Shown here in pieces: positions 15,345-35,719 of a DNA stretch of 64,000 bases (the first letter of the stretch is position 1; every line of letters starts with the position of its first letter). This DNA comes from an uncultured Chloroflexia bacterium (GTDB lineage: Bacteria; Chloroflexota; Ktedonobacteria; Ktedonobacterales; Ktedonobacteraceae), in assembly GCA_963731605.1 (NCBI GenBank), contig CAVSWA010000001.1, positions 439,242 to 503,241 on the forward strand, given 5' to 3'. The translations under genes were made by a program, and so were the position numbers. The notes under the pieces were generated by a model that saw nothing but the letters and a program-made list of their open reading frames with translations, had not been told where the DNA came from and did not search any database.

Positions 15345-15389
15345 AATAGATGATATTACACACAGAGATGTTGTGTAATATCATCTATT
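15345..15389. terminator. Perfect 18-bp inverted repeat with a 9-nt loop, between or overlapping the convergent TPR and jetD 3' ends; candidate bidirectional terminator
   Basis: AATAGATGATATTACACA (15345-15362), loop CAGAGATGT, then TGTGTAATATCATCTATT (15372-15389). Most of the structure (from the jetD stop at 15356-15358 onward) lies inside jetD, and the 3' arm encodes its last codons. Confidence 0.5.
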
Positions 15390-16759: not shown

Positions 16760-16778
16760 TCTTACTTCCGTCCTTTGA

Positions 16779-21273: not shown

Positions 21274-21311
21274 GAATATTTCCCTTTTTCAGCCGCGCAT
21301 CTTCTGGCCGG

Positions 21312-22751: not shown

Positions 22752-24427
22752 GCCTGTTCCTCCTCTCCACTGTCACGCTGCAAGCGGTAGCGTGGTAAAA
22801 GCAGTATTCCATCGGGCGCGCGCAGGATGGTGTAGCTCTGCTCGTCATAGTTGAGTAATGTAATTGTGGAGCCATCGGGTGCGCGGTACTGGTGGCGTGT
22901 ATCGCCCAGGCATCCATCGATGACGGTCAACAAAATCGCGCGCTCGTCAGCCGTGATGTGTTTGAGCCCGCCAAGATCGAGCAGCGCCGTAGCGAAGAGG
23001 TTGGCGAAACGCAAGGTTTCTTGTTGCAGTTTTTCCTCGTACTGTTTGATGAGTTCGCGCGCGCCATCGTTGCGCACAATCACCGGGTCTTCCAGGCTGT
23101 GTTCCCCGCGATAGGAACGACTGACCGGGCGCAAACGCAGGCTGGCGGTAGGCGGTTGCTGCCATACGTTGGCTTCGGCGACATCATGGCGGGCGCTGGC
23201 TCTGCCCGCCAGGCTCTCCGGCAGATGCACGGGAAGCATGTTGGCAAAGGCCAGGCTGAAAAGCTGTTGGGCGGTATCGCCGTCTCTCGCCTGGAGCAAT
23301 TGCATGGCCAGGGTATGCAGGTTGGCGGCATAGTTGGCGTTGGGACGCGCCGAGGCTGCCAGCACGGAGGCGCGGCGCACAACTTTATCTACCTCAGCCA
23401 GGGCGTTGCGGCGGAAGGAATTGGCATTTTTTCCCAGCGCAAACCAGTTCATCAGCGCGTTCAACTGGTTATCGGCCTCCTGAAGCAGCTCCTCCTGGGA
23501 TGATCTATTTTCCAGGGTTGGCGATGGCGGCTCAAGGTGTTCTGCCACGATCTTGATGAGGCGATCTTTCTTGCCTGTCTCGATCCATTCTGCCAGCAAT
23601 GCGCGTATGCGGCGGCTGTAAAGTGTGAGCGATTGCGCGAAACCGTGTACGTAAGCCACAACTGCCGCTTTATAGGCCTGGTAGGCGTCGAAATCGGGTC
23701 GTCCCTGTTGCGCGGCCTGCATCATATTGGCCAGGTATTGCGCGGCCTCGCGCGCCATGGTATTCCATATTTCGAAAGCGCGCTGCCATTGCTCGGTCAT
23801 GGCGCGCCCGTGCTCGGGGGAGTATTCTTCCGGTAGGTTACGTAAATCTTCGTCCAGCGATTGCAGGGAATTCCACAGGTGCGGCAAGTCTCCCTGGCGC
23901 AGCGCGCCTTTGCCGGTGTTGGCTCTCATCTGTTCATCGAGGAAAGTTTCGATGGCGATGGCTTCCGGCGTGGCCTGGTAGAGCAGGGCCGGGGCAAGGA
24001 AACTGGTGATGGATGTGGCGCGGCTGGAATCGTAAATGGTAGTTATATTGCCCCATTCTTTGAGGGCTGCCAGGTCGTTCTGGCATTGTTCCAGCGTGTA
24101 TTCTGCTTCTAATGTGTCGCGTATCTCGTCGCGCACTTCTTGCGCGGTCAACTGGTAGCGATACAACTCACGATGGGAGTGGAAAAAGTAGCGCATAATG
24201 ACGCGATACCAGCGAATGCGATTGGAAGCGACCAGGTAGCTGAAAATCGGCAGGCGGTCGGTGAGTTGGAAGACAGCAGATGTTGAGATGGGTTCGGGCA
24301 TTAGGTCCGCGCCGATCATGCGCGTTTCTGGCATGTTAAATGCGCGATGCTGGTCTTCATTTACTACAGCCGAATTATCTGGCCGGTATCCATTGTGCAT
24401 CAACTGGCGCTCTCCGAGGCTTTTCAT
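22748..24427 (-). CDS. jetA: Wadjet JetA-type subunit (TIGR02677 / DUF2397-like)
   Basis: 559 aa and first gene of the cassette. FSYLVASNRIRWYRVIMRYFF...QLTAQEVRDEI...DLAALKEWGNI matches my memory of the TIGR02677 N-terminal pattern. Confidence 0.7.
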   Translation of the reverse strand: MKSLGERQLMHNGYRPDNSAVVNEDQHRAFNMPETRMIGADLMPEPISTSAVFQLTDRLPIFSYLVASNRIRWYRVIMRYFFHSHRELYRYQLTAQEVRDEIRDTLEAEYTLEQCQNDLAALKEWGNITTIYDSSRATSITSFLAPALLYQATPEAIAIETFLDEQMRANTGKGALRQGDLPHLWNSLQSLDEDLRNLPEEYSPEHGRAMTEQWQRAFEIWNTMAREAAQYLANMMQAAQQGRPDFDAYQAYKAAVVAYVHGFAQSLTLYSRRIRALLAEWIETGKKDRLIKIVAEHLEPPSPTLENRSSQEELLQEADNQLNALMNWFALGKNANSFRRNALAEVDKVVRRASVLAASARPNANYAANLHTLAMQLLQARDGDTAQQLFSLAFANMLPVHLPESLAGRASARHDVAEANVWQQPPTASLRLRPVSRSYRGEHSLEDPVIVRNDGARELIKQYEEKLQQETLRFANLFATALLDLGGLKHITADERAILLTVIDGCLGDTRHQYRAPDGSTITLLNYDEQSYTILRAPDGILLLPRYRLQRDSGEEEQA

Positions 24428-24621
24428 TGCTTTTGCTTGAACATACGTGGTAGACGAATGTTATTGTAACACGCACAGTCCACCCAGAGTACCAGCATGG
24501 TACTGATTGACTGCTTAAACTCTCTCTCGAAGCAGTTATTCTTTATGACAATGTGGAAAACGGATTCAATCTTACGATTTTTTCGTAAACTTGGTCATAG
24601 CCCTCGGCAAGAAGTTTCCGA

Positions 24622-25845
24622 TCAGCGGCCGGTGACGGCATTGGCATGGGCCGGGAAGCCTTCGAAATCTGCCAGGGCGCGCGTCGTTTTGCTCAAGGAG
24701 GGGTAGCCCTCTGCTGTGACGTAGGCAATGCCGGTGCGTTTCAGGAAGTCGAAAACCGACGTGCAGGAGAAGGTATGGGCGAAGCCGCCGGTGGGCAGCA
24801 CAGCGTTGGTTCCGACACAGTAGTTGCCGAGGCAGAAGGGCGTGTGCGGCCCGATCAGTATCTCGCCCGCGTTTTTCAGATGCGACAACAGGGCGAAGGG
24901 TTCGCGCACCTGCACTTCAAGATGTTCGGGCGCGTATTCGTTGACGAAGTCGATGGCGTCTTGCATATTATCGGCCAGCACGATGCCGCCGGTTCCCTGG
25001 GGCGATTCAAAGACGGTCTGGACGAACTCGCGCCGCCACTCTGGCAGCGCGGCGATTTTCTCCGGCAGGGCTGCTACGACCGCTTCGGCCAGCTTGCGAT
25101 CGTCTGTTACCAGCAGGCTTGAGGAATCGGGGCCATGTTCGGCTTCGATAAGCAGGTCGCGGGCTAACAATTCGACGCTGGCGCTGCCATCGGCCAGGGT
25201 AATCGATTCGCTGGGTCCGGCTGGTAATCCGACATCCACGACGCCGTACAGGATGCGTTTAGCGGCGGCTACGTAGCCACTGCCGGGGCCGGTGATCTTG
25301 TACACGCGGCGAATGGTGTCCGTGCCATAGGCCAGCGCGGCGATGGCTTGCGCGCCGCCAAGGCGATAGATTTCATGCACGCCGCACAAATCGGCTGCTA
25401 CCAGCGAGGCCGGGTCAACACTGCCGTCGGGCGCGGGCGGAGTGCAGACGACGATGCGTGGCACACCCGCGATACTGGCAGGGGTGCTGAGCATGTACAT
25501 TACCGATGGGAAGGCGCCCTTGCCGCGTGGCACGTAGAGGCCAACCGAACTGATGGGAGTAATTTTCTCCCCGGCCATCACGCCCGGCTCTACCTCTGTG
25601 AACCACAGTTCTTGCGGCATCTGGCGTTGGTGAAAGGCGCGCACGTTAGAGATGGCGTGTTGAATAGCGGCATAGACATCTTTATCGAGTTTGCGGTGCG
25701 CCTCTTCGATTTCGGTGGGGCTGACGCGCAGTTGGGCAGGCGTCAGTTGCACGCGGTCGAAACGAGCGGTCAATTCGATGAGCGCTTCATCGCCGCGTTC
25801 GCGCACCGCCCGCACGATGGGGGAGACGCGCTCGAACGAGTTCAT
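24622..25845 (-). CDS. hisD: Histidinol dehydrogenase family protein (HisD), with a displaced 5' end and non-canonical residues
   Basis: Carries RGDEAL..FD, PASIAG, GGAQAIAALAYGT, PAGPSE, EAEHGPD, APEHL, GTNAVLPT and AHANAV. A HisD-like N-terminus (MIHFYELTHLDAARRARLIRRAELQIDEL) is encoded from the ATG at 25924 in another frame, which implies a frame shift near 25826-25846. Confidence 0.85.
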   Translation of the reverse strand: MNSFERVSPIVRAVRERGDEALIELTARFDRVQLTPAQLRVSPTEIEEAHRKLDKDVYAAIQHAISNVRAFHQRQMPQELWFTEVEPGVMAGEKITPISSVGLYVPRGKGAFPSVMYMLSTPASIAGVPRIVVCTPPAPDGSVDPASLVAADLCGVHEIYRLGGAQAIAALAYGTDTIRRVYKITGPGSGYVAAAKRILYGVVDVGLPAGPSESITLADGSASVELLARDLLIEAEHGPDSSSLLVTDDRKLAEAVVAALPEKIAALPEWRREFVQTVFESPQGTGGIVLADNMQDAIDFVNEYAPEHLEVQVREPFALLSHLKNAGEILIGPHTPFCLGNYCVGTNAVLPTGGFAHTFSCTSVFDFLKRTGIAYVTAEGYPSLSKTTRALADFEGFPAHANAVTGR

Positions 25846-25931
25846 CGATTTGCAGTTCCGCGCGGCGTATGAGGCGCGCGCGACGGGCCGCGTCCAGATG
25901 TGTAAGCTCGTAGAAATGTATCATGGTGTAA

Positions 25932-26822
25932 TTACGCTAAACCTTTCCGTTTCATCTGTTCCAGGTCAAATTCTGCCGGAGCAAGAGGGCTGATCTGCGC
26001 GTCGGCGCAGGCCCAACCGATCAGTTGAAATCCAATCTCCAGCCCCTGGACGACGTGGAGTGGATCGTAGGTGGTGAGCAGGTTCAGACAGCGTTGGCGC
26101 AATTCCATCGATTGCTCGGCGCTGACGTGTTCCGCATAGCCTTGCAAAAGAGGCTTGTGCGGCAGAAATTCCGCATATTGTAGCTTATATGTAGATGCCA
26201 GCAAGAGCAGCCAGTAACCTACCTGGCTGCTTTCCAATGTGGTGTCCGATTGGCGGTCGCTATGCGCGTGCTCGCCGGTCTGCACCTCGGCCAGTTCTTG
26301 CAGCTCGTCGGCCAGGCGCGCGGTGAGGTACGCGGGACTGTGTTCCTGTAAGAGGCGCGAGGTATTGGACTCCTCGCTCATATCGTGTTCGCGCAGGTAG
26401 ATGTAGACGCCGTACAACTGGCGCATGGCCTTTTCGAGCGGAGCGGCCAGTTGCGCGCTGTATACCTCATCGGGGTCAAAGACACGCTCCGCTATGGTCT
26501 CGTATGAGCCGTCGGGGAGCAGGCGTCGGTAGTAGCAACTGCGATAGCCAGTGTGGCAGGCCGCGCCGCCGTGCTGGGTGACGCGAATGAGCAGGCTGTT
26601 CTCTTCGCAATTGACGTAGATCGAGCGCACTTCCTGCGTATTGCCGGACTGTTCCCCTTTGCGCCAGAGCGCGTTTCTTGAGCGGCTATAGAAGTGGGTA
26701 TAGCCGGTAGCGCGTGTGCGGTCAAAGGCGGCCCGGTTCATAAAGGCGACCATCAACACTTCGTGTGTAGTATCGTCCTGGATGACGGCGGGAATCAACC
26801 CTTCGCGATCAAAGTTCAGCAT
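25932..26822 (-). CDS. hisIE: Bifunctional phosphoribosyl-AMP cyclohydrolase / phosphoribosyl-ATP pyrophosphatase (HisIE) with an extended C-terminal MazG-like part
   Basis: The N-terminal HisI part has LIPAVIQD..., WRKGEQSGN and [14 protein letters not shown]. The C-terminal HisE-like part is about 170 aa (ELQELAEV...[12 protein letters not shown]), longer than a usual HisE. Confidence 0.85.
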
Positions 26823-27582
26823 GGCGTATCGTTACTCCTTTCGCGGCTAAAAACGCTTTGGCCTCGGAAATACGAATCTGTCCAAAGTGGAAAATCGAGG
26901 CTGCCAGGACTGCGTCGGCCTCGCCGGATGTCAGGCCCTCGTAGAGATGCTCCAGCGTTCCCACGCCGCCTGACGCGATGACCGGCACGGAGACGGCCTG
27001 GGCAATGCGAGCGGTGAGCGTGAGTTCGTAGCCTTGCCGCGTGCCGTCGCGATCCATGCTGGTGAGCAGAATTTCGCCCGCGCCCAGTTCTACGCCGCGC
27101 CGCGCCCACTCAACGGCGTCTTTGCCGGTGGGAGTGCGCCCGCCGTGAATGAAGACTTCGTAGCCGCACGGCATGGCCGCATTGGAACGGGCGTCGATAG
27201 CCAGGATGATGCACTGCGCCCCAAATTGTTCGGCTCCAGCGCGCAGCACGTCGGGATGCTGGACGGCGGCGGTATTCAACGATGTCTTGTCCGCCCCTGC
27301 GGCCAGGGTTGCGCGGATGTCTTCCACGCTGCGTATGCCACCGCCCACCGTCACGGGAATAAACACCTGTTCGGTGGTGCGGCGCACCACATCGAGCATG
27401 GTGGCTCGATTTTCGACCGAGGCGGTGATGTCCAGAAAAACGAGTTCATCCGCGCCTTCATCATTATAAAACTTCGCAAGCTCAACCGGGTCCCCCGCGT
27501 CGCGCAGGTTGACGAAGTTGATGCCCTTGACGACGCGCCCGGCGGTAACATCGAGGCAGGGGATGATACGTTTAGTCAGCAT
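26809..27582 (-). CDS. hisF: Imidazole glycerol phosphate synthase cyclase subunit HisF
   Basis: [41 protein letters not shown] and IASGGVG. Confidence 0.95.
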
Positions 27583-27596
27583 AATCTTCCCTTTCT

Positions 27597-27667
27597 GTCA
27601 TTCTGAGCGAAGCGAAGAATCTCACTTTCGCCGCGATGCAGAGATTCTTCGCTTCGCTCAGAATGAC
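27597..27667. repeat. Perfect 27-bp-stem palindromic REP-like element (family 1) in the hisA-hisF intercistronic gap
   Basis: GTCATTCTGAGCGAAGCGAAGAATCTC (27597-27623), a 17-nt loop, then GAGATTCTTCGCTTCGCTCAGAATGAC (27641-27667). It fills the space between the hisA stop (27670) and the hisF start (27582). Confidence 0.9.
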
Positions 27668-27669
27668 AA

Positions 27670-28407
27670 TTAGAACTCCAGTTCACAGGTTTGAATTGCT
27701 TCCGCCAGGTCGATAGCGCCGGTATACAAAGCCTTGCCAACGATGGCTCCCTCAATGCCTAATTTCGCGATTGCTTGCAGGTCGTCGATGGCGCTGATGC
27801 CGCCAGATGCGATCAACGCGCCGCGGGGAGAAATGTTGGTGATGGTTGCCTGCATGGCTTGCAGAGCGGGCAGATTTGGCCCGCGCAACGCGCCATCACG
27901 CGCGATGTCGGTGTATATAAAGCGCTGCACGCCGCTGGCACACAGTTCGCTTGCCAGCGTGGTCGCTTGCGCCTGTGAGGTTTCGCGCCATCCCGCGATG
28001 GCGACGCGACCATCTCGCGCATCCAGGCCAACGACGATGCGCTCAGGCCAGCGTTGTAACGCCTCTAGCAAAAGGTCGCGGTCGGTGATGGCGATGGTAC
28101 CGAGTACGATGCGATCGATGCCCATATCGAGCATACGTTGCATAGAAGCCAGCGTTCGCATACCGCCGCCGCACTCGATGTGGAGCGACACTGCCCTGCG
28201 TATACGGTGGATAACCTCGAAATTCGCGGGGTGGCCGTTGAGCGCGCCGTCCAGGTCAACCACGTGCAGCCAGCTCGCGCCTGCATCTTGCCAGCGCCGT
28301 GCGACCTGCGCGGGGTCGGCGTCATAGGTGGTGAGCCTGTCAAAATCGCCCTGGTAGAGACGCACGCATTTACCATCTTTGATATCGATGGCCGGGAGTA
28401 TTTTCAT
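27670..28407 (-). CDS. hisA: ProFAR isomerase HisA
   Basis: MKILPAIDIKDGKCVRL, VVDLDGA, GGGMRT, VGLDARDG and IYTDIARDG. The ATG at 28407 overlaps the hisH TGA, so the ORF-track start at 28431 is probably too long. Confidence 0.9.
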   Translation of the reverse strand: MKILPAIDIKDGKCVRLYQGDFDRLTTYDADPAQVARRWQDAGASWLHVVDLDGALNGHPANFEVIHRIRRAVSLHIECGGGMRTLASMQRMLDMGIDRIVLGTIAITDRDLLLEALQRWPERIVVGLDARDGRVAIAGWRETSQAQATTLASELCASGVQRFIYTDIARDGALRGPNLPALQAMQATITNISPRGALIASGGISAIDDLQAIAKLGIEGAIVGKALYTGAIDLAEAIQTCELEF

Positions 28408-29024
28408 CCTTTTTTCCCTTCCTGCGTCCACTTCACAAAATTATCGAGCAGGCGCAGGCCTGCCGCGCCGCTTTTCTCCGGGTGAAACTGCGTTCCCCAG
28501 ACGCGCTCGGTGACGATGACACTACAAAAGGGCGAGCCATACTCGGTGACGGCGGCTACTCCTCTGGTGTCCTGTGGCTCGACATAGTAAGAGTGCGCGA
28601 AATAGAAATACTCCTGCGGCGAGATACCAGCGAAGATGGGTAGATTGTCGCGCAGTGGCGCTACCGAATTCCATCCCATATGCGGTATTTTGGGGCCATG
28701 GGGGATGCGCCGCACCTCGCCGCGAAACAGGCCCAATCCAGCAACTTCGCCCTCGGAGTGGTGATCTGCCAGCAGTTGCATTCCCAGGCAGATGCCCAGA
28801 AAGGGCTTGCCCTGCTGCGTGGCCAGGCGTATGGCGTCGTCTAATCCGCGCTCGATCATACGCGCCATAGCAGCGCCGCCCGAACCGACGCCCGGTAAGA
28901 CAATGGCACGCGCCTCTGCCACGACCTGTGGGTCGTCGGTGACTTGCGCGCGCGCGCCGAGGTAGGCTAAGGCTTTGGCGATGCTGCGTATATTGCCCGC
29001 ACCGTAGTCAATGATGGCAATCAT
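28404..29024 (-). CDS. hisH: Imidazole glycerol phosphate synthase glutamine amidotransferase subunit HisH
   Basis: IAIIDYGAGNIRS, LPGVGS, GICLGMQLL (catalytic Cys) and QFHPEKS. The ATG at 29024 overlaps the TGA of the upstream gene. Confidence 0.9.
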   Translation of the reverse strand: MIAIIDYGAGNIRSIAKALAYLGARAQVTDDPQVVAEARAIVLPGVGSGGAAMARMIERGLDDAIRLATQQGKPFLGICLGMQLLADHHSEGEVAGLGLFRGEVRRIPHGPKIPHMGWNSVAPLRDNLPIFAGISPQEYFYFAHSYYVEPQDTRGVAAVTEYGSPFCSVIVTERVWGTQFHPEKSGAAGLRLLDNFVKWTQEGKKG

Positions 29025-31381
29025 GAGATAGCCCCCCATATACCTGGTCCGCTATTGCCCATTTGTAGCGCGTGCGCCAGGCCCAGCCAGGTTATGGCGG
29101 GTGAATAGCGCGTCTCGTCTAGCAAATTGATGGTGAGTAACGGACAACACATCAATGCCAGTTGCATAATTTCCTGCCAGTTTCCGGGTAACGCATGTTG
29201 TTTGCGCAGTTCAGCTAGCAAGGGTTGTAGTAAGTGTTCCAGCTTGGTGGCTACAATTGCCTGACGCACAGGCGCGAGCGTGTAGTCATGTTCAATGATG
29301 ATGGTCGCGTCGCGTACTGTCACTGTGAGATGCAGGTCGCGCGCGATTTCATGCGGAAAGTACATCCAGGTCGCGTATACATTGTGATACAGGGGCTTCA
29401 CTACGTCAAGTAGTGGAGAGTGCTTACCGGCGAAGGCCGGGTCAAAGTAGAGGTAATCGCGCTGGTTCTCGAGGAAGATATTGCCGAAATGGGCGTCGCC
29501 ATGTCCGATTACCGTCATGGTCGCTTGAGCGGGATGAAGTGCTGTCTTACCGCGCTCGATCAGTTCGCCCAGCGTATGTGGTTGTTGCTTCCCCTGGATG
29601 ATCCAGCGATAGCGCAACAGGTCATCGAATGCGATGGTTTGCTGCTCGCCTGTGTTGATAGCGTTACCCGGCAAAGGAACCGGTTTGCCAGCATAGAAGC
29701 TGTTGAGGCGGCTTCCGGCCAGGCGGTGCCAGAATAGCTGGTGAATGGGCGCCTGGGCGTGCTCTTCTGCTGTCGCTGGCGCGAGGGTTGCGCGATAGAT
29801 GGCGAGCAAACGCTCGCATTCTCTGCGCTCGGCAGAAACGAGCATATCGATGGTAGCGTTGCTGGTCTGACCTGTCTCAAGCTCGCGCATCAGGTCAAAC
29901 ATGACAGGCCATTTTACGACGGGGTAAATAACCATCTGCTGCTCTTTTTTCTGCACGAGACGCAGCGGATTGACGATAGTATACCCGGCCTGTTGCAGTA
30001 AAGCGGCATGGTAGTATTCTTCCAGGATGCCCTTGTCTTCAACGTGCGTTTTGAAGAAGTAATCCTGCCCGTCGCTGCGGTAGATGCCGTTGAAGGAATT
30101 GAGCGAGACGGCTTTGGGCGTCAGGCTTACCTGTTGCGTTGACAGGCTCATGTGACGCGCAAACCAGAGGCGTAGGAGGCGTTCGGCCTTTTCGCGATCT
30201 TGAAATTGCAGATGCTGGATGGTCAAAAGACTATCCATGTGTGAAAGAAGCTCTGGAAGATGTGTTATGTCATCGATGGTGAAATCGGGCTGGCTGCGGG
30301 CGAGTAACTGACGCGCTTCATCTGTGCGCGTTCCGGTCAGCACGGCAACGGTTAAAGCCCCGGCTGCGCGTCCTCCCAGCATATCACTGGTGGAATCGCC
30401 GATCACAATACAGGGTGCGGCCGGTTGAGGGGTGTTGCCCTGTACGATGGCCTCTTCGTAGCTATGATCTAGCGCGTAGAGAAATGGGAAGGCATGGGGT
30501 TTGCTCAGTAATGTCTGGTCGCCGCGCGCGCGTAGCTGTGCCTCGGCGCGTTCGACCGCGTCGTAGGTGGAGATATGGCGCTCGTCGAAGTAAGCCAGCA
30601 GGCCGCACACGCGCAACGGGTAGGCCGCTTCCAGGAAGTCGCGGCCTGTGGCAATACCCAGGGTGTACTGTTGTTGATTCAATGTCTCAAGGATCGCGCT
30701 TATCTGTGCGATGGGTAGCAGAGGCTGTTCAAAGTGGATGCAACCGGGCTTGCCAGGTTGCGCCGGGGCGCGTCGATAGCTTTGTTCATAGAGTTCGTCA
30801 CCCAGGAACCATTCCTGGAATATGGAGCGACAAAATTCCCAGAAGGGGCTGTAGCGCGTGAATACATCTTCGATGGGGTAGCCTAATTGGTCGCTGGCAT
30901 AAGCATCGAGGCGGTTAATCAATTGCAATCCGACGGCATCGCGAAAAACGGGCTGCGCGAAAATCCGCGCCATGTCCAATTGCTCCGCGCGTCCCGTCAC
31001 ATGCTGCCGGAAGTTCGCCAGCCAACCAGCATCCCAGGGCAACAGAGGAAAGATGTTGGTATCTGCTCGCTCAAGTTGTGTTTTGTCGCTTTGCCACGCG
31101 CTCAAAATCGAGATCAAGTGCAGGCATACCGCAGCGTAGCAGGTGTCCCAGTTTGAGTTGATGGCGCGGCCCTTGAGCGCCAGGATTTGCGCCTCTGGCA
31201 TGGTGGCGCGGCTGATATGGCGGCTCTCTGCTGCGGTTTGGGCGGGATGATAATGAATCTCATGTAACCCCCAATAGCGAAAACTATACAACATCTCGTG
31301 CAGGGTGAGACCGGCGGCGTCCCAGTAGGCTTCTTCGCTGGTAATTACGCCATCGAGGTCAAAGATAATCAGGTTGTTCAA
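29021..31381 (-). CDS. Fusion protein: N-terminal HAD-superfamily phosphatase with a very large cap, plus a C-terminal APH/choline-kinase-fold phosphotransferase-like domain
   Basis: 786 aa. HAD motifs are: I, IIFDLDGV (aa 5-12); II, LGIATGR (about aa 245); III, LLSKP (about aa 294); IV, VIGDSTSD (about aa 328). The kinase-like catalytic loop is VIGHGDAHFGNIFL, followed by LYFDPAFAG. The TTG start overlaps the hisG stop (TTGA) and the stop overlaps the hisH start (ATGA). Confidence 0.7.
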   Translation of the reverse strand: MNNLIIFDLDGVITSEEAYWDAAGLTLHEMLYSFRYWGLHEIHYHPAQTAAESRHISRATMPEAQILALKGRAINSNWDTCYAAVCLHLISILSAWQSDKTQLERADTNIFPLLPWDAGWLANFRQHVTGRAEQLDMARIFAQPVFRDAVGLQLINRLDAYASDQLGYPIEDVFTRYSPFWEFCRSIFQEWFLGDELYEQSYRRAPAQPGKPGCIHFEQPLLPIAQISAILETLNQQQYTLGIATGRDFLEAAYPLRVCGLLAYFDERHISTYDAVERAEAQLRARGDQTLLSKPHAFPFLYALDHSYEEAIVQGNTPQPAAPCIVIGDSTSDMLGGRAAGALTVAVLTGTRTDEARQLLARSQPDFTIDDITHLPELLSHMDSLLTIQHLQFQDREKAERLLRLWFARHMSLSTQQVSLTPKAVSLNSFNGIYRSDGQDYFFKTHVEDKGILEEYYHAALLQQAGYTIVNPLRLVQKKEQQMVIYPVVKWPVMFDLMRELETGQTSNATIDMLVSAERRECERLLAIYRATLAPATAEEHAQAPIHQLFWHRLAGSRLNSFYAGKPVPLPGNAINTGEQQTIAFDDLLRYRWIIQGKQQPHTLGELIERGKTALHPAQATMTVIGHGDAHFGNIFLENQRDYLYFDPAFAGKHSPLLDVVKPLYHNVYATWMYFPHEIARDLHLTVTVRDATIIIEHDYTLAPVRQAIVATKLEHLLQPLLAELRKQHALPGNWQEIMQLALMCCPLLTINLLDETRYSPAITWLGLAHALQMGNSGPGIWGAIS

Positions 31382-32466
31382 TGGGACCTCTTTAATCGTT
31401 CGCGCAGGGCACGGACACTGGAGGACTCTTCCGCGAAGCGGTAGGTCAGCGGCGTGACGTGGATGTGTGTCGCTCCGGCGGCGCGTAAGAGGGCGATGAT
31501 GGCGAGCAAGTCCGAGGCCGAATCCCTGGCGTTGATCACGCCCGATATGGTGTGTGTGGATGCGGATACGGATGCCGGATGTTCCCCGGTTATACTGCTG
31601 CTGACCAGGCGGAACTCAGCGCCGGGCTGAAGCTCCTGGATGTGCTGGTTGAGGTGGGAACAGGCAAGCTGGATGGTGGATTGTTCGCCCTGCAACTGGG
31701 CTGTGAGCAGCGAGCAGTTACGCGCCTGCATGCGCGCTTCGATCAGTTCAAGCATGGTCGATACCATACTCAAGGCTGCTTCGCTCTCGCGTACCAAACG
31801 AGCGTTGGCTATCAAGCAGGCTTGCGAGCGCAAAACCACGCCATCGTCCAGCAGTTTGAGGTGGTTTTCGCGCAGGGTGGTGCCTGTCTCGGTGAGGTCA
31901 ACGATCAAATCGGCGGTATCGGTCAGAGGAGCGGCTTCCAACGCGCCGTGCGGCGAGACGAGTTTGTAGTGCGTGATGCCGCGCTGCCGCAGGAAGTGCG
32001 TGGTCAGGCGCGGGTATTTGGTGGCGATGCGCAGGTTTTGTCCCTTGCGCGAGCGATAGTAACCGGCCAGGTGCCAGAGGTCGGCGGGCGTGCTGATATC
32101 GACCCATGTTTCGGGCACGGCAACCACCAGGCGACATTGACCATAGCCCAGATTGCGTTCCAGCATCAGCAGTTCGTCGCTGCTGTCTTCTTCGCCCTGG
32201 TCGTCGTCGCCGTAGCCCCGGTGTTCGGCCAGGATGTCGTAGCCGGTGATGCCAAGCGTGGCGTCGCCATCCTGCACCAGCGTGGGAATATCGGCGGCGC
32301 GTTGAAATACGACTTCTATGCCGGGCATACTGTGCATATGCGCCAGGTACTGACGTGGATTGCTGCGATTGACTTTCAATCCGCATTCGGCCAGAAAGGC
32401 CAGGGTGGCGGATTCTAATGCGCCCTTGCCGGGCAGAGCCAGGCGAATTTCGCGGGTGGGGTTCAT
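31378..32466 (-). CDS. hisG: ATP phosphoribosyltransferase HisG, long form with C-terminal regulatory domain and an acidic insertion
   Basis: IRLALPGKGAL, LGITGYDIL, CRLVVAVPE and IVDLTETGTTLREN form the catalytic core. The C-terminal ISGVINARDSASDLLAIIALLRAAGATHIHVTPL resembles the HisG_C domain. There is a GDDDQGEEDSSDE insert. The ATG overlaps the upstream stop (ATGA). Confidence 0.85.
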   Translation of the reverse strand: MNPTREIRLALPGKGALESATLAFLAECGLKVNRSNPRQYLAHMHSMPGIEVVFQRAADIPTLVQDGDATLGITGYDILAEHRGYGDDDQGEEDSSDELLMLERNLGYGQCRLVVAVPETWVDISTPADLWHLAGYYRSRKGQNLRIATKYPRLTTHFLRQRGITHYKLVSPHGALEAAPLTDTADLIVDLTETGTTLRENHLKLLDDGVVLRSQACLIANARLVRESEAALSMVSTMLELIEARMQARNCSLLTAQLQGEQSTIQLACSHLNQHIQELQPGAEFRLVSSSITGEHPASVSASTHTISGVINARDSASDLLAIIALLRAAGATHIHVTPLTYRFAEESSSVRALRERLKRSH

Positions 32467-33998
32467 CGGTTGGTCTCCTGTGCGAGTAGATAGCGGATGG
32501 CTGTGTCTTGAGCGAGATGCTGCTCTTCACCGCTGTCCAGGTTGCGCAGGGTGACACGCTGTTCGCGCGTTTCATTCTCGCCGACGATCAAGGCGCGAGA
32601 GATGCGCTTTTTCCCTGCCAGTTTCAGGCCCGCGCTCAATCCGTGCCCACTTATATCGACTTCGCTGCGGATGCCCTGCGAACGGGCGGCGCGGGCGACT
32701 TGCAGGGCGTATGGCATATCCTGCGAGCTGATGGGGATGATGATGACCGAAGTCGTGCCAGCAGTAGCTTCCTCTTTTCCCGGCATAAGAGCGAGCAGGC
32801 GTTCGACGCCAAAGGCGAAGCCACAGGCTTTGACGGCGCGCGTTCCACCGATGACCTGCACCAGGGAGTCGTAACGGCCACCGCCGCAGATCTGCGTTTG
32901 GTTTCCATCAACATCTTGCGCGTGGATTTCAAAGACCAGGCCGGTATAGTAGCTAACGCCGCGCCCCAGCGCAAGGTTCAAGCTGATGCATTCGCGTGGA
33001 ACGCCGCTTTGCTCAACCACTGCGACCAGTTGTTCCAGTTCGGCGAGAGGCGCGGCGTCGATCTGGTAGCGGGCCAGGATGTCGCGTAGGGCTTCAAACG
33101 CTTGAGGAGGCGAACCGGCGGCGCTATGCAGTTCGCGCAGCAGGTCGAGGGCGCGCAAAATCTGGCGACGTTGCTCGCCGCGTCCCATTTTCCACAGGAA
33201 ACGAGCGATGATTTCCTGGCGGCTTTCATCGTTGCTGTTCAGGGCGGTCATGCCGTTTAACAGCGATGTGAGGAAGCGTTCGTCGGTTTTTTGCGCTGAA
33301 GAAGAGCTACTTTGCGCTTCGGCTATTTCAGCAGGGTAGAGCATCTCCAGCCGGGAATGGGCCGCCTGTTCGCCTTCCGGCGAGCGGCTGATTTGTTCCA
33401 TGAGGCTGAGCAAGAGGTGAGCAGCCTGTTCGTCCAGGCGCAGGCGCTGGATAAAGCCACTGGCAACTCCTACATGGCCCAGTTCTAATCGATAGGAGGG
33501 GATGTTTAGATCGTTGAGCGCGTCACAGGCCAGTTGCAATATTTCGCAATCGGCGCTGACGGCGTGGCCTCCCAGGAGCTCGATGCCAAGCTGGGTATGC
33601 TGGCGGTAGCGTCCGCGTCCGGGCGTTTCGTAGCGAAAGACCGGTCCGGCGTACTGAAAGCGCAGCGGCAAGGGGTTATGCTGGTAATGGTCAAGATAGA
33701 GGCGGCAGATAGAAGCGGTATATTCGGGTCGCAAGCACAAATCCCGATTATGCAGGCGAAAGGTATAGAGGTTTTGCCAGAGTTCCTGCCCGAAGCTGGC
33801 TAAAAAGAGGTCGCTGTTTTCCAGCAATGGCGCGTCTACCCGGTCATATCCAGCCCGCGCTAAAAATGCGCCCAGGCGTTCTATTATATGTTGCTGGTTC
33901 AGGTAGGCATCTGGTAAGAGGTCGTGCATCCCACGCAACCGCTCAACACGTTTCTTCATAAGTAAGTGCTCCCGTGGTGTTTTTCCGATTTTCTGCAA
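32463..33998 (-). CDS. hisZ: Histidyl-tRNA-synthetase-like protein (HisZ-type regulatory subunit or HisS paralogue) that retains an anticodon-binding-like C-terminal domain
   Basis: RGMHDLLP, LRPEYTASICR, FRYETPGRGRYRQHTQLGIELLG (motif-2-like) and GGGRYDSLV...GFAFGVERL (motif-3-like). A C-terminal alpha/beta domain follows (SVIIIPIS...ALIVGENE...VTLRNL). It is translationally coupled to hisG. The probable true start is the ATG at 33959, since 33998 is a TTG. Confidence 0.65.
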   Translation of the reverse strand: MQKIGKTPREHLLMKKRVERLRGMHDLLPDAYLNQQHIIERLGAFLARAGYDRVDAPLLENSDLFLASFGQELWQNLYTFRLHNRDLCLRPEYTASICRLYLDHYQHNPLPLRFQYAGPVFRYETPGRGRYRQHTQLGIELLGGHAVSADCEILQLACDALNDLNIPSYRLELGHVGVASGFIQRLRLDEQAAHLLLSLMEQISRSPEGEQAAHSRLEMLYPAEIAEAQSSSSSAQKTDERFLTSLLNGMTALNSNDESRQEIIARFLWKMGRGEQRRQILRALDLLRELHSAAGSPPQAFEALRDILARYQIDAAPLAELEQLVAVVEQSGVPRECISLNLALGRGVSYYTGLVFEIHAQDVDGNQTQICGGGRYDSLVQVIGGTRAVKACGFAFGVERLLALMPGKEEATAGTTSVIIIPISSQDMPYALQVARAARSQGIRSEVDISGHGLSAGLKLAGKKRISRALIVGENETREQRVTLRNLDSGEEQHLAQDTAIRYLLAQETNR

Positions 33999-34144
33999 CG
34001 ATACAAGGGCGGGGCAAGCCCGGCCCGTACCCTGTACGATTTGACACGGCTACTAGTGTGCCACATGGGAACTACCACGGTGTAGTAATGTGATAACCAG
34101 GGCAGGGGCCAGCCCTGGTCGTGTAGCTGTCATTCTTAATATTT

Positions 34145-34173
34145 AGGATATCAGTGTGGGTTTGAAAAGTCAA
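34145..34173 (-). promoter_or_regulatory. Candidate sigma-70-type promoter of the his operon
   Basis: On the minus strand: TTGACT (34173-34168), a 17-nt spacer, then TATCCT (34150-34145). This would give a 5' UTR of about 180 nt containing two GC-rich hairpins (34096-34119 and 33999-34040). Confidence 0.3.
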
Positions 34174-34309
34174 TCTTAATTTGTGAAGCAGTTCACAGAA
34201 AAACATCTTCGTATCTGCTAAAGTGCCTGTGGAAAGCCTTCTCTTATCTCGATTTCTTCGATTCTGCGAAAAACCACTAATTGCTCCGAGTAGCCATAAG
34301 GGAGTGACT

Positions 34310-35719
34310 ATGCAGCACAATTCGCGGCGCGTACATTGCTTTTGCGTTCTTTTCTGCTTTCTCATCATGCTCAGTGCCTGTAGTTCATCACCGGGAAATG
34401 ATACAGCAGCTACGCCTTCTCCTGCTAAAACGTCCGCGCTAATTTCTGCGACTCCTACTGCCACGATTGGACAAATTGTGGCCGCACAGACCTGTCCGGC
34501 TGCGGGAAGCGCGCGGGCCGCCATCATGCCGCCTATGACAGTAGAGAATCATGCAAATGTGGTGTTTCTTGCTCAGCAAGGCGAGAACACCCTGTTGCAA
34601 CGCTATGATGTTACTACCGGCGCGATACATACTATTCTTCAGTTACAGGCTGGACCGGATCTAGGGACGAATGTTTCGCCAGATGGTCAATGGGTGCTTT
34701 TTGAAGCATCGATCCAGAGCCAATCGGCCATCCAGCTTGTGCGGATGGATGGCCTGCAGTTGCAGACGCTTTACTGCGCCCCTCCACAGACTGGTGCTAG
34801 CAACCTGGTGCTATCGCCCGATCAGCATTACCTCGTGTTTAGCCAGGGGAATACCGATGAGACCGAGAGCAGCGTGTACCTGCTTAATATGAGGACTGGC
34901 AAGCTGCAAACCGAGATGTCGTCGCTACAGCCAGGCTATCCAGTGTTCGGGCAATATGCCGCGCAAAGCTCGTCCCTGTCGTTACTTTCGTCTCCTTTTT
35001 CTCATAGGAATGAGGCAAGCGACGGTTTACCGGCGCAGCCCTCGTCTCCTTTGGGATCGAAGCACTATCCAATCTATGTTCCCATGAAATGGGCGACGAA
35101 CAGCAGCGTGTATCTACTTGGGGGGGTAATTGCTACTCCCTCTCCGCCGCCTCAGCTCGTTCTTTTGCGCGACATTGCTAAGGATGTGACGCAGCAGGGA
35201 AGCAATGTGCAGCCCATGGTTGTTACGCCTGAGACGAACAATTGCCAGGACGTTGACGTGACGCCTGATAACAGGCAGGTGGTGTGCAGTTCTTATGCAC
35301 AATTCGGACCGGGCAACCCCAGTTCGATTTTGCTGCAATCCACTACTGGCGGCGCGTTTCACTCGATATACCGCGACGAGGCGAGGGGATCGCTTACGGC
35401 TCGCGCGTTCTCCAACTCGGCCATCATCTTTATCCGGTACGGGCCCAACGCGCCACCCGCGCTATTCAAGGTCAATACCGATGGCAGTGGGTTGAGCCAA
35501 CTGATGGTTGTTGCGACGACAGAAATATTGCTTAACCCTGCTGCCAGCTATCTCCCCTGGTCAAGCGCTTCGCGAGATGGTTCGCTCTATGCTTTTCAGC
35601 TTTACAACCTGACGACGAATAAGCAAACGCTCGTTTTCGGTCATATGATCGGTGGTATGCCCGTGACCTTTGCTTCAAGCTCCGACGCATTAGAGGTCGT
35701 GGGTTGGACGGAGCTTTGA
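34310..35719 (+). CDS. Lipoprotein with TolB-like beta-propeller repeats
   Basis: The ATG at 34310 is preceded by AAGGGAG. The signal peptide has a lipobox (FLIMLSAC-SSS). Repeated VSPDGQWVLFEA / LSPDQHYLVFSQ motifs are present. Confidence 0.7.
   Translation: MQHNSRRVHCFCVLFCFLIMLSACSSSPGNDTAATPSPAKTSALISATPTATIGQIVAAQTCPAAGSARAAIMPPMTVENHANVVFLAQQGENTLLQRYDVTTGAIHTILQLQAGPDLGTNVSPDGQWVLFEASIQSQSAIQLVRMDGLQLQTLYCAPPQTGASNLVLSPDQHYLVFSQGNTDETESSVYLLNMRTGKLQTEMSSLQPGYPVFGQYAAQSSSLSLLSSPFSHRNEASDGLPAQPSSPLGSKHYPIYVPMKWATNSSVYLLGGVIATPSPPPQLVLLRDIAKDVTQQGSNVQPMVVTPETNNCQDVDVTPDNRQVVCSSYAQFGPGNPSSILLQSTTGGAFHSIYRDEARGSLTARAFSNSAIIFIRYGPNAPPALFKVNTDGSGLSQLMVVATTEILLNPAASYLPWSSASRDGSLYAFQLYNLTTNKQTLVFGHMIGGMPVTFASSSDALEVVGWTEL

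What the first reader, a model, noticed from the sequence alone, without database searches (positions are those of the whole stretch)
29021..31381. 786-aa HAD-phosphatase::kinase-fold fusion translationally coupled inside the his operon. It may be the missing histidinol-phosphate phosphatase or a new activity.
The gene sits between hisG and hisH with overlapping stop/start codons on both sides (TTGA and ATGA), so it is almost certainly co-translated with histidine enzymes.

The N-terminal 385 aa or so have all four HAD motifs (FDLDGV, IATGR, SKP, GDSTSD). About 230 aa of cap lie between motifs I and II, which makes it unlike the capless HisB-N type.

The C-terminal 390 aa or so have an aminoglycoside/choline-kinase-type catalytic loop (GHGDAHFGNIF) and a metal-binding YFDPAFAG.

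The known histidinol-phosphate phosphatases are the HisB-N HAD type, the PHP type (HisJ/K) and the IMPase-like type (HisN). I know of no his-operon enzyme with this fusion architecture. hisB (IGP dehydratase) and hisC are absent from this operon, so the role of a phosphatase plus a putative kinase here is open.
Basis: partly seen in the sequence, partly recalled or inferred. Interest (0 to 1): 0.7.

Follow-up and report, generated by a model that had tools for sequence, protein, structure and literature searches.

The report
Phosphatase–kinase fusion standing in for HisB
A two-domain phosphatase–kinase gene sits in histidine operons exactly where the dehydratase gene hisB normally lies, and it probably replaces that supposedly universal enzyme with an ATP-driven step.

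Summary
Window 29021-31381 (minus strand) encodes a 786-aa protein. Its N-terminal half is a large-cap HAD phosphatase and its C-terminal half is a small-molecule kinase of the APH/choline-kinase fold (KIN). It is translationally coupled to hisG and hisH.

KIN, not the phosphatase, is the constant histidine-linked element. Of 108 KIN-bearing loci, 79 have KIN directly upstream of hisH and 17 directly downstream of hisD. They come from Ktedonobacteria, Anaerolineae, cyanobacteria and a Parcubacteria (candidate-phyla-radiation, CPR) genome.

KIN has paired independently with different phosphatases: a large-cap HAD fused on either side, a small HAD, and possibly a PTP-like protein.

One operon reads hisG-D-C-[HAD::KIN]-H::A::F-IE. 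That is the E. coli order hisGDC[NB]HAFIE with KIN in the dehydratase position. No imidazoleglycerol-phosphate dehydratase (IGPD) gene occurs in any locus.

Hormoscilla carries KIN-HAD-hisC, and a published study reports IGPD as its only missing histidine enzyme.

Best reading (about 0.6): a non-homologous analogue of bifunctional HisB. KIN phosphorylates a hydroxyl so that phosphate elimination replaces dehydration, and HAD is the pathway phosphatase. There is no biochemistry, and genome-wide absence of IGPD in Ktedonobacteria could not be tested.

The parts
29021..31381 (-). Gene X: 786-aa HAD::kinase-fold fusion protein, TTG start, stop codon included
   Evidence: ORF. There are 469 homologues and the best 120 are full length at 57-92% identity. 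The exact sequence is on record.
30227..31381 (-). N-terminal HAD phosphatase domain with a large helical cap (aa 1-385)
   Evidence: Pfam HAD_2, Hydrolase and Hydrolase_like hits. PDB 1qyi matches at E 6.5e-39 over aa 5-390. AF2 model pLDDT 92; Foldseek gives 1qyi at TM 0.80 and otherwise only small HAD-IA cores.
31346..31363 (-). HAD motif I, FDLDGV (aa 7-12; nucleophile D8, acid/base D10)
   Evidence: Invariant in alignments A1 and A3.
30677..31345 (-). Cap insertion of about 220 aa between HAD motifs I and II (aa 13-235), with conserved K70, N77-W78-D79 and F188-Q189-x-W191
   Evidence: Alignment A3 invariant columns. All-helical in the AF2 model.
30641..30655 (-). HAD motif II, IATGR (aa 243-247)
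   Evidence: G246 and R247 are invariant and T245 nearly so.
30497..30505 (-). HAD motif III, SKP (aa 293-295, K294)
   Evidence: K294 and P295 are invariant.
30383..30400 (-). HAD motif IV, GDSTSD (aa 328-333, D329 and D333)
   Evidence: Invariant. The coordinates were checked against the sequence.
29024..30226 (-). C-terminal kinase-fold domain KIN (aa 386-786), a member of an uncharacterised family of about 400-aa proteins
   Evidence: The Pfam APH hit is weak (E 0.009, below the cut-off) and there is no NCBIfam hit for a cyanobacterial KIN homologue (L081). AF2 pLDDT 93.5. Foldseek matches APH(9), Mph, APH(3'), APH(4), MTR kinase, homoserine kinase II, ethanolamine kinase and aminopropanol kinase. 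Stand-alone homologues are listed.
30044..30058 (-). FFKTH (aa 442-446), putative ATP-binding beta-3 lysine K444
   Evidence: Nearly invariant in 55 sequences. Conserved in every context group.
29480..29506 (-). Catalytic loop GHGDAHFGN (aa 626-634; H627, D629, H631, N634)
   Evidence: H, D, H and N are invariant in A2. This is the region that matches Pfam APH. Coordinates were checked.
29426..29449 (-). YFDPAFAG (aa 645-652), metal-binding Asp D647, equivalent to the DFG motif
   Evidence: Conserved.
31378..32466 (-). hisG (362 aa); its TGA stop overlaps the TTG start of X (TTGA at 31381-31378)
   Evidence: Pfam HisG, and TIGR00070 at 192.6 bits. Sequence.
32463..33998 (-). HisRS-like gene in the hisZ position (511 aa, with anticodon-binding domain), 4-nt overlap with hisG
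   Evidence: TIGR00442 hisS scores 313 bits, above its cut-off. hisZ scores 258.7 bits, below its cut-off.
28404..29024 (-). hisH; its probable ATG at 29024-29022 overlaps the stop of X (ATGA)
24622..28431 (-). hisA (27670-28431), hisF (26809-27582), hisIE (25932-26822) and hisD (24622-25845): the rest of the operon
   Evidence: Pfam and NCBIfam hits.

Best explanation
Gene X is a non-homologous analogue of the bifunctional HisB (HisNB) enzyme of E. coli. Together with HisC, its two domains carry imidazoleglycerol phosphate (IGP) to histidinol.

- **Kinase domain (inferred).** KIN uses ATP to phosphorylate the hydroxyl next to the imidazole ring of IGP, or of dephosphorylated imidazole glycerol. 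This is the hydroxyl that IGPD expels. Phosphate then leaves and the enol tautomerises to imidazole acetol (phosphate). A kinase step thus achieves the formal dehydration of step 6 at the cost of one ATP.
- **HAD domain (inferred).** It is the pathway phosphatase. Most simply this is histidinol-phosphate phosphatase (step 8). Alternatively it acts on IGP or imidazole-acetol phosphate immediately before or after KIN.

Shown here:
- the fold and intact catalytic residues of both domains;
- strict linkage of KIN to his genes, in the hisB position, in several phyla;
- repeated independent pairing of KIN with phosphatases;
- the absence of IGPD genes from all these operons.

Inferred: the substrate, the elimination step, and the order in which the two domains act.
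For: **1. Position.** Of 108 KIN-bearing loci (111 loci in all, 1.66 Mb), 79 have KIN directly followed by hisH and 17 have hisD directly followed by KIN. Only 6 have no his neighbour.

**2. A complete operon.** One operon reads hisG-hisD-hisC-[HAD_2::KIN]-hisH::A::F-hisIE with 4-nt overlaps from hisC onward. A Parcubacteria genome has hisG-hisC-hisD-HAD_2-KIN-hisH::A. This is the E. coli hisGDC[NB]HAF[IE] order (PMC1963479) with KIN in the place of IGPD.

**3. No IGPD.** tblastn with E. coli HisB finds nothing in the window or in any locus. The same query detects plant IGPD at 1e-58 and M. tuberculosis IGPD at 1e-40.

**4. Independent genome evidence.** Schorn et al. 2019 found IGPD to be the only histidine enzyme missing from both Hormoscilla genomes, even when they searched the whole metagenome. 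Two other Hormoscilla assemblies (L083, L084) carry KIN-HAD-hisC.

**5. Phosphatase partners recruited independently.**
- Large-cap HAD fused N-terminally (this gene).
- The same HAD type fused C-terminally (P0266) or encoded as a separate gene.
- An unrelated small HAD_2, fused or adjacent.
- A PTP-like phosphatase overlapping hisD.

**6. Domain swap.** That small HAD is 43% identical (E 1e-56) to the HAD of proteins whose other domain is IGPD-family.

**7. KIN without a phosphatase.** KIN alone lies between hisG and hisH in one Ktedonobacteraceae lineage.

**8. Intact kinase machinery.** It is conserved in all groups, and the fold is that of small-molecule kinases.

**9. Chemical precedent.** APH-type kinase domains of ACAD10/11 and LvaA phosphorylate a hydroxyl as the requisite step in a formal dehydration.
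Against: - There is no biochemical or genetic test.
- Genome-wide absence of IGPD could not be checked for Ktedonobacteria, the group this window belongs to. Their operon also lacks hisC, so hisB could simply lie elsewhere with hisC.
- The Hormoscilla evidence comes from metagenome-assembled genomes. The two genomes analysed in the paper (GUM007_hs, GUM202_hs) were not themselves checked for KIN, so the complementarity holds at genus level only.
- KIN homologues with the same conserved residues also occur away from his genes (paralogues in Ktedonobacterales).
- In Komagataeibacter diospyri, KIN lies in a histidine-utilisation (hut)-type cluster next to a hisD-like gene. From general knowledge that organism should have a normal hisB. 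A salvage kinase for imidazole glycerol, imidazole acetol or histidinol would fit this context too.
- Spending an ATP on a dehydration is costly.
- Whether elimination is spontaneous or enzyme-catalysed is unknown.
- The IGPD-family domain of the HAD::IGPD-like proteins is divergent and those genes are not in his operons.
Confidence: 0.58

Rival explanations
1. Ordinary pathway plus an accessory kinase. IGPD and HisC are encoded elsewhere in the genome, and the HAD domain is the missing histidinol-phosphate phosphatase. KIN is a salvage or repair kinase that re-phosphorylates imidazole glycerol or imidazole acetol released by a promiscuous phosphatase, or that captures external imidazole compounds.
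For: - hisC is also absent from the Ktedonobacterial operon, so his genes are scattered there.
- In Komagataeibacter, KIN lies with a hisD-like gene, hutF, hutG, two dehydrogenases and an NCS1 transporter. This looks like uptake and catabolism of an imidazole compound.
- Non-his-linked paralogues exist.
- The nearest folds include kinases of small amino alcohols: ethanolamine, aminopropanol and homoserine kinase.
Against: - It does not explain why KIN takes the exact hisB position in operons that contain every other his gene, hisC included.
- It does not explain why none of 108 KIN loci has IGPD.
- It does not explain why Hormoscilla, which has KIN, lacks IGPD altogether.
- A fused phosphatase and kinase acting on the same metabolite pair would form a futile cycle inside a biosynthetic operon.
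Confidence: 0.25
2. Histidinol kinase/phosphatase pair. KIN phosphorylates histidinol and HAD dephosphorylates histidinol phosphate. Together they buffer free histidinol, which from general knowledge inhibits histidyl-tRNA synthetase, in step with HisD capacity.
For: - Tight hisD-KIN adjacency, including 4-nt overlaps, in Anaerolineae, cyanobacteria and Komagataeibacter.
- Histidinol is an amino alcohol like the substrates of several structural neighbours.
- The operon starts with a HisRS-like gene.
Against: - It is a futile cycle with no known precedent in amino-acid synthesis.
- It leaves step 6 unexplained in the complete operons and in Hormoscilla.
- The invariant residues beyond the catalytic core are basic (R553, R558, K662). 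Amine-binding kinases would be expected to show acidic residues instead; this is an inference.
Confidence: 0.06
3. Regulatory protein kinase/phosphatase that modifies HisG, HisZ or another his enzyme.
For: The protein-kinase-like fold, the pairing of a kinase with a phosphatase, and the location next to hisG and hisZ in this window.
Against: - All the structural neighbours listed are small-molecule kinases, except TvaE, which was solved in complex with a leader peptide.
- The linkage persists where hisG and hisZ are absent from the neighbourhood: the Dictyobacter group and the cyanobacterial hisD-KIN-HAD-hisC modules.
- The partner phosphatases are metabolite-type HADs.
Confidence: 0.03
4. Hitch-hiker with an unrelated function, for example an antibiotic or xenobiotic phosphotransferase that happens to lie in the operon.
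For: The weak Pfam APH match and the top Foldseek hits to aminoglycoside and macrolide phosphotransferases.
Against: The position inside translationally coupled his operons is conserved across at least three phyla, with sequence identity down to about 34%. Chance or hitch-hiking cannot account for that.
Confidence: 0.02

Closest known systems
Bifunctional HisB (HisNB) of E. coli and Salmonella: histidinol-phosphate phosphatase fused to IGP dehydratase
   Same: - An N-terminal HAD-superfamily phosphatase is fused to a second catalytic domain.
- The gene lies immediately upstream of hisH, in the order hisG-D-C-[fusion]-H-A-F-IE.
- It accounts for the two his steps that have no other gene in the operon.
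   Different: - The second domain is an ATP-dependent kinase fold, not the Mn-dependent IGPD fold (no similarity).
- The HAD here is a large-cap 1qyi-like type, or a HAD-IA type in CPR bacteria. It is not the capless DDDD/HAD-IIIA HisB-N type.
- The proposed chemistry consumes ATP.
ACAD10/ACAD11 of animals and LvaA/LvaC of Pseudomonas putida
   Same: - An APH-type small-molecule kinase phosphorylates a hydroxyl so that phosphate, not water, is eliminated.
- ACAD10 also carries an N-terminal HAD phosphatase domain acting at another step of a related pathway.
   Different: - There is no acyl-CoA dehydrogenase domain here and no detectable sequence relationship beyond the superfamily.
- The substrates there are 4-hydroxyacyl-CoAs and alkylglycerols.
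- Elimination there needs the ACAD domain, whereas no lyase partner is evident here.
PDB 1QYI, Staphylococcus aureus Q8NW41 (structural-genomics protein of unknown function)
   Same: The only solved structure with the same large-cap HAD architecture: E 6.5e-39 by sequence, 26% identity in the Foldseek alignment and TM 0.80. The catalytic motifs are the same.
   Different: It is a stand-alone 384-aa protein with no kinase domain, no known function, and no his linkage that I could examine.
APH/choline-kinase-like small-molecule kinases (APH(9), Mph, APH(4), MTR kinase MtnK, homoserine kinase type II, ethanolamine and aminopropanol kinases)
   Same: The bilobal kinase fold, the H-x-D-x-x-x-x-N catalytic loop, the metal-binding Asp, the beta-3 Lys and the alpha-C Glu.
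   Different: - Only 9-15% identity, with TM 0.35-0.5 over the query.
- Below the Pfam APH gathering score (16.2 against 23.2 bits); no NCBIfam family for the cyanobacterial KIN tested.
- Family-specific invariant residues: SLNSxNG, R553, R558, K662, H666, Y674, C745-C746.
Imidazoleglycerol-phosphate dehydratase (IGPD, PF00475)
   Same: The proposed net reaction (IGP to imidazole acetol phosphate) and the genomic position.
   Different: An unrelated fold and cofactor. [quoted passage not shown]

Membership tests
HAD superfamily phosphatase | Four catalytic motifs (DxD nucleophile and acid/base, T/S, K, and an acidic motif IV) on a Rossmannoid core | tested here: met
   D8/D10, T245, K294 and D329/D333 are conserved in 31 and 34 sequences. 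Pfam HAD_2, Hydrolase and Hydrolase_like score above their cut-offs. The Foldseek core matches HAD-IA enzymes.
1qyi-like large-cap HAD family | A helical cap of about 220 aa inserted between motifs I and II, with full-length similarity to 1QYI | tested here: met
   phmmer E 6.5e-39 over aa 5-390. Foldseek TM 0.80/0.81 at E 1.3e-24.
HisB-N type histidinol-phosphate phosphatase (HAD-IIIA/DDDD, TIGR01261/TIGR01656 type) | A capless HAD of about 165 aa related to GmhB | tested here: not met
   NCBIfam gives only a sub-threshold HAD-IIIA subfamily hit (20.2 against 44.6 bits) and no HisB-N model. A large cap is present.
Histidinol-phosphate phosphatase activity (any family) | Hydrolysis of L-histidinol phosphate | not testable with these tools
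   Supported only by context: a phosphatase of one family or another accompanies KIN in his operons.
PHP-type (HisJ/HisK) and IMPase-type (HisN) histidinol-phosphate phosphatases | A PHP or inositol-monophosphatase fold | tested here: not met
   No Pfam or NCBIfam hit of either kind in X.
APH/choline-kinase-like (protein-kinase-like) small-molecule kinase fold | A bilobal fold with beta-3 Lys, alpha-C Glu, an HxDxxxxN catalytic loop and a metal-binding Asp | tested here: met
   AF2 model pLDDT 93.5. Seventy-nine PDB matches with E <= 0.001; the 50 listed are nearly all from this fold. K444, E455, H627/D629/N634 and D647 are conserved.
Pfam PF01636 APH family (sequence membership) | A score above the Pfam gathering threshold | tested here: not met
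   16.2 bits against a cut-off of 23.2, matching the catalytic loop only. A few homologues pass it.
MTR kinase (MtnK) and homoserine kinase type II | A match to the curated equivalog models | tested here: not met
   No NCBIfam family at E <= 1e-5 for a cyanobacterial KIN homologue (L081), and none of these models among the hits of X itself at E <= 1. The structural matches are at ranks 11 and 16, with 10-11% identity.
IGP dehydratase (PF00475) | The IGPD fold with the D-x-H-H-x-x-E Mn-binding motifs | tested here: not met
   No Pfam hit, no PROSITE motif and no tblastn hit. Any functional equivalence would be analogy, not homology.
ACAD10-type HAD-kinase-ACAD proteins | A C-terminal acyl-CoA dehydrogenase domain after the kinase | tested here: not met
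   The protein ends after the kinase domain and has no ACAD Pfam hit.
Functional analogue of HisB in his operons (proposed here) | KIN-bearing, histidine-synthesising genomes lack IGPD | tested here: inconclusive
   Met at locus level: 0 IGPD in 108 KIN loci. For Hormoscilla the published genomes lack IGPD and other Hormoscilla assemblies carry KIN.

The most novel reading that the evidence does not exclude
KIN is the first non-homologous replacement of imidazoleglycerol-phosphate dehydratase. It would be an ATP-dependent 'dehydrating kinase' that phosphorylates the hydroxyl next to the imidazole ring, after which phosphate is eliminated.

In Ktedonobacteria, some cyanobacteria, Anaerolineae and CPR bacteria the late histidine pathway would then run without IGPD. 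It may even run through dephosphorylated intermediates (IGP to imidazole glycerol to imidazole acetol to histidinol). That route would explain two observations: KIN is always paired or fused with a phosphatase, and the module-linked HisC proteins lack one of the two phosphate-binding arginines.
Probability: 0.55. Interest if true: 0.92.

Novelty: new variant of a known kind. Interest (0 to 1): 0.85.

Why it matters
Histidine biosynthesis is a textbook pathway thought to be enzymatically uniform. The phosphatase step is the only recognised exception. IGPD is described as the same in all histidine-synthesising organisms (PMC1963479, PMC9798254) and it is a herbicide and antimicrobial target.

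A kinase-based substitute would have several consequences.
- It would be a second, unexpected case of non-orthologous displacement in the pathway.
- It would explain published 'histidine auxotrophy' calls that rest on a missing hisB, as for Hormoscilla sponge symbionts, and similar gaps in metabolic reconstructions of Chloroflexota, cyanobacteria and CPR genomes.
- It would extend the 'phosphorylate, then eliminate' logic of ACAD10/11 and LvaA to central amino-acid metabolism.
- It would give a function to a widespread uncharacterised kinase family and to the 1QYI-type HAD family.
- It predicts organisms that are intrinsically insensitive to IGPD inhibitors.

The hypothesis is directly testable by complementing hisB or his3 mutants and by a simple coupled assay.

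Tried and rejected
**Family assignments**
- TIGR01548 (HAD-SF-IA-hyp1) as the HAD family: a weak hit only (17.8 against 140.2 bits). Rejected.
- MTR-kinase relationship, suggested by HGDxHxGN resembling the MtnK motif I recalled from memory: only a distant structural match and no NCBIfam hit. Rejected as membership.

**Searches for IGPD**
- Searched in the window and all loci with PROSITE patterns, with tblastn using E. coli HisB, and with the divergent IGPD-like domain of P0481. Nothing was found.
- A genome-wide test in Ktedonobacteria was not possible. A protein search with an IGPD query would list only the 120 hits closest to the query, with no taxon filter.

**Literature**
- Searches for Ktedonobacter or Ktedonobacteria together with hisB or histidine, and for phrases such as 'missing hisB', returned nothing useful.
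- A search for a described kinase-type IGPD substitute found none.

**Regulatory RNA**
- An Rfam scan of 24000-35000 found no T-box or his leader, only chance miRNA-model hits on a hairpin between hisA and hisF. Promoter and terminator scans did not differ from shuffled sequence.

**Contexts and related proteins**
- Contexts of the 54-56% identical Ktedonobacterales paralogues were uninformative.
- P0242, an 867-aa 'fusion', looks like a frameshifted or misassembled gene and was ignored.
- HAD::IGPD-like proteins (P0479, P0481) were expected to lie in his operons, but they do not. They count only as weak support.

**Structure**
- A full-length structure prediction to examine domain packing was not run, because coordinates are not returned by the tool.

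Full report
**1. The observation**

Window 29021-31381 (minus strand) is a 786-aa ORF with a TTG start. On the minus strand, 31381-31378 reads TTGA, so the TTG start overlaps the hisG stop. 29024-29021 reads ATGA, so the stop overlaps an ATG that gives HisH its usual N-terminus.

The operon on the minus strand is: HisRS-like gene in the hisZ position, hisG, X, hisH, hisA, hisF, hisIE, hisD. Neither IGPD nor a hisC-like gene was detected in the window. For IGPD the tests were PROSITE patterns and tblastn with E. coli HisB. For hisC the test was tblastn with a cyanobacterial hisC only.

The exact protein is on record on a 2.45-Mb contig. Its closest relatives, and those of its neighbours, are Ktedonobacteraceae (Chloroflexota).

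**2. The two halves**

*HAD half (aa 1-385).* This is a HAD hydrolase with D8/D10, T245, K294 and D329/D333, and about 220 aa of helical cap between motifs I and II.
- Pfam sees only the C-terminal part of the core.
- The whole domain matches PDB 1QYI, an S. aureus structural-genomics protein of unknown function (E 6.5e-39).
- An AF2 model (pLDDT 92) superposes on 1QYI at TM 0.80. Every other hit covers only a small HAD-IA core.
- Catalytic and cap residues (K70, N77-W78-D79, F188-Q189-x-W191) are conserved in 34 family members down to 29% identity.

*Kinase half, KIN (aa 386-786).* It matches Pfam APH only weakly (E 0.009, below the cut-off). A cyanobacterial KIN homologue (L081) matches no NCBIfam model.
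- An AF2 model (pLDDT 93.5) matches small-molecule kinases of the APH/choline-kinase fold at 9-15% identity. These are APH(9), Mph, APH(3'), APH(4), MTR kinase, homoserine kinase II, ethanolamine kinase and aminopropanol kinase.
- K444, E455, H627/D629/H631/N634 and D647 are conserved in 55 homologues down to 30% identity. So are the family-specific S429, R553, R558, K662, H666 and Y674.

Both halves therefore look catalytically competent.

**3. The kinase domain is the his-linked element**

An exhaustive search showed that each half belongs to its own large family of stand-alone proteins of about 400 aa. I collected neighbourhoods from GTDB species genomes, from metagenome contigs and by exact look-ups. 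I annotated them with tblastn.

Of 111 loci (1.66 Mb), 108 carry KIN:
- 79 have KIN directly followed by hisH;
- 17 have hisD directly followed by KIN;
- 6 are cut off by a contig end;
- 6 have no his neighbour.

The contexts fall into these groups.
- **Ktedonobacteria, fused.** Large HAD::KIN upstream of hisH-A-F-IE. hisZ-hisG lie upstream in most. In the Dictyobacter/Tengunoibacter/brp13 group argC-argB lie there instead.
- **One Ktedonobacteraceae lineage.** KIN alone lies between hisG and hisH, with no HAD.
- **Hot-spring lineages.** hisZ-G-D-HAD-KIN-H-A-F-IE, with HAD and KIN as separate genes.
- **Cyanobacteria** (Symploca, Xenococcaceae, Prochloraceae, Hormoscilla and others). (hisD)-KIN-HAD-hisC, with hisD and hisC above their NCBIfam equivalog cut-offs.
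- **Anaerolineae.** hisD-KIN beside a divergent hisG-hisZ pair. In one case a PTP-like phosphatase overlaps the hisD start.
- **CPR/Parcubacteria and relatives.** hisG-C-D-HAD_2-KIN-H::A, and the fused form described in section 4.

**4. Rosetta-stone evidence**

KIN is fused to phosphatases in three independent ways:
- large HAD::KIN (this gene);
- KIN::large HAD (P0266);
- small HAD_2::KIN (P0261 and P0276).

The small HAD is unrelated to the large one beyond the superfamily (E 0.14).

The P0276 contig reads hisG-hisD-hisC-[HAD_2::KIN]-hisH::hisA::hisF-hisIE, with 4-nt overlaps from hisC onward. This is the E. coli arrangement hisGDC[NB]HAF[IE], in which hisNB encodes HAD phosphatase::IGPD (PMC1963479). 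Every histidine gene is present except IGPD and a recognised phosphatase, and the only unexplained gene product is HAD::KIN.

The small HAD is also 43% identical (E 1e-56) to the HAD of proteins of about 640 aa whose remainder belongs to the IGPD family by Pfam (49-63 bits against a cut-off of 27). Those genes are not in his operons, and the domain is divergent.

**5. No IGPD nearby, and none at all in one KIN-bearing lineage**

tblastn with E. coli HisB found nothing in the window or in any locus. As a control, the same query detects plant IGPD at 1e-58 and mycobacterial IGPD at 1e-40.

Independent evidence comes from Schorn et al. 2019 (PMC6520454). They reported that both Hormoscilla spongeliae genomes encode every histidine step except HisB/IGPD. 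PF00475 and a Moorea hisB query found no cyanobacterial hit even in the whole metagenomes. [quoted passage not shown] The Hormoscilla assemblies held in GTDB (L083, L084) carry KIN-HAD-hisC. The paper's own genomes were not checked for KIN.

**6. Mechanism proposed**

From established knowledge, IGPD removes the hydroxyl adjacent to the imidazole ring through a diazafulvene-type intermediate (PMC4509728 and PMC6272695 were listed but I did not read them in detail). A phosphate ester at that position would be a far better leaving group.

APH-type kinase domains are known to do exactly this kind of job. ACAD10/11 and LvaA phosphorylate a 4-hydroxyl as the requisite step in converting hydroxyacyl-CoA to enoyl-CoA. 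ACAD10 also carries a HAD phosphatase domain that acts elsewhere in a related pathway.

I therefore propose that KIN phosphorylates IGP, or imidazole glycerol, and that phosphate elimination gives imidazole acetol (phosphate). HAD would provide the phosphatase step. All of this is inference.

The order of the steps is open. Three observations would fit a route through dephosphorylated intermediates:
- the recurrent pairing of KIN with a phosphatase;
- the Komagataeibacter cluster hutF-hutG-ADH-SDR-hisD-like-KIN-transporter;
- the loss in module-linked HisC proteins of the arginine equivalent to E. coli R322. By position this corresponds to M. tuberculosis R337, one of the two phosphate-binding arginines.

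The invariant basic residues of KIN would instead fit a phosphorylated substrate.

**7. Weaknesses**

- There is no experiment.
- IGPD absence could not be tested genome-wide in Ktedonobacteria, whose operon also lacks hisC.
- KIN paralogues with the same conserved residues exist away from his genes.
- A KIN gene lies in a catabolic-looking cluster in an alphaproteobacterium that presumably has hisB.

The main rival is therefore a normal pathway with HAD as histidinol-phosphate phosphatase and KIN as a salvage or repair kinase. I give the HisB-analogue reading about 0.58 and this rival about 0.25.

**8. Comparison with the known, and novelty**

- X is a member of the HAD superfamily and of the 1QYI-like large-cap family.
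- It has the APH-like kinase fold, but it is not a member of any curated kinase family.
- It is not homologous to IGPD, to HisB-N, or to PHP-type or IMPase-type phosphatases.
- It resembles E. coli HisNB in operon position and logic. It resembles ACAD10 in domain types and in the proposed chemistry.
- I found no description of this family or of a kinase-type IGPD substitute in the searchable literature.

I rate it a new variant of a known kind: the histidine pathway with a non-homologous enzyme at step 6. Interest is high.

Noticed in passing
window 15356-24427 (minus strand): A complete type II Wadjet anti-plasmid system lies directly downstream of hisD: JetA2 (22748-24427), JetB2 (21312-22751), JetC2 and JetD2 (15356-16759). 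JetC2 is split into two overlapping ORFs (18745-21273 and 16779-18833) that match the N- and C-terminal halves of the model. This is either a frameshift or a genuinely split gene.
   Followed up: partly
window 41299-43554 (minus strand): A 751-aa NAD-dependent epimerase/dehydratase whose Pfam match stops at residue 156 and which contains a LAGLIDADG_3 match (aa 438-472). It is probably an intein-interrupted gene.
   Followed up: no
window 31378-33998 (minus strand): The gene in the hisZ position (511 aa) keeps an anticodon-binding domain. It scores above the hisS equivalog cut-off (313 bits) but below the hisZ cut-off. The hisG overlapping it is 362 aa, with an insertion and about 120 C-terminal residues that match no HisG_C model. 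Whether this gene is HisRS, HisZ or both is unclear.
   Followed up: partly
L081:12397-13467, L077, L084, L110:6824-8020: The hisC genes linked to KIN modules in cyanobacteria and Parcubacteria lack the arginine equivalent to E. coli HisC R322. It is replaced by A, Q or V. By position it corresponds to M. tuberculosis R337, one of the two ligands of the substrate phosphate, and the second arginine is kept. This hints that these aminotransferases may use a non-phosphorylated substrate.
   Followed up: partly
L108:3787-12082 (Komagataeibacter diospyri, GCA_006538165.1): A KIN homologue (32% identical to the window's, all key residues kept) lies in an apparent operon hutF-hutG-Zn-ADH-SDR-hisD-like-KIN-NCS1 transporter, next to a hutI-like gene. 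This suggests uptake of an imidazole compound that is converted to histidine and then degraded.
   Followed up: partly
L089:7573-8316 (Anaerolineae MAG): A Y_phosphatase3 (PTP-like) protein of 247 aa overlaps the start of hisD by 4 nt, upstream of hisD-KIN. It is a candidate for yet another type of histidine-pathway phosphatase. It was seen in only one locus.
   Followed up: no
L105:9569-11488 (proteins P0481 and P0479): Proteins of about 640 aa combine a HAD_2 phosphatase with a divergent, double-length IGPD-family region. They lie in contigs with planctomycete-type domains and not in his operons. They may be an undescribed form of bifunctional HisB.
   Followed up: partly
P0276 contig (JGI 3300043331), L095:3385-4866, L110:11308-12546: Unusual his gene fusions occur in CPR-like operons: hisH::hisA::hisF (724 aa), hisA::hisF (493 aa) and hisH::hisA (412 aa). 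A TrpR-like repressor gene lies upstream of hisG.
   Followed up: no
window 27594-27668 (minus strand): A hairpin of about 75 nt fills the hisA-hisF intergenic gap. It is strong enough to draw chance hits from two miRNA models in Rfam (E 0.002-0.01, far below the gathering scores).
   Followed up: no
L066, L068, L092-L094: Ktedonobacterales genomes carry a second, stand-alone KIN paralogue (54-56% identical, all key residues kept) that is not near his genes. No consistent neighbourhood was seen.
   Followed up: partly
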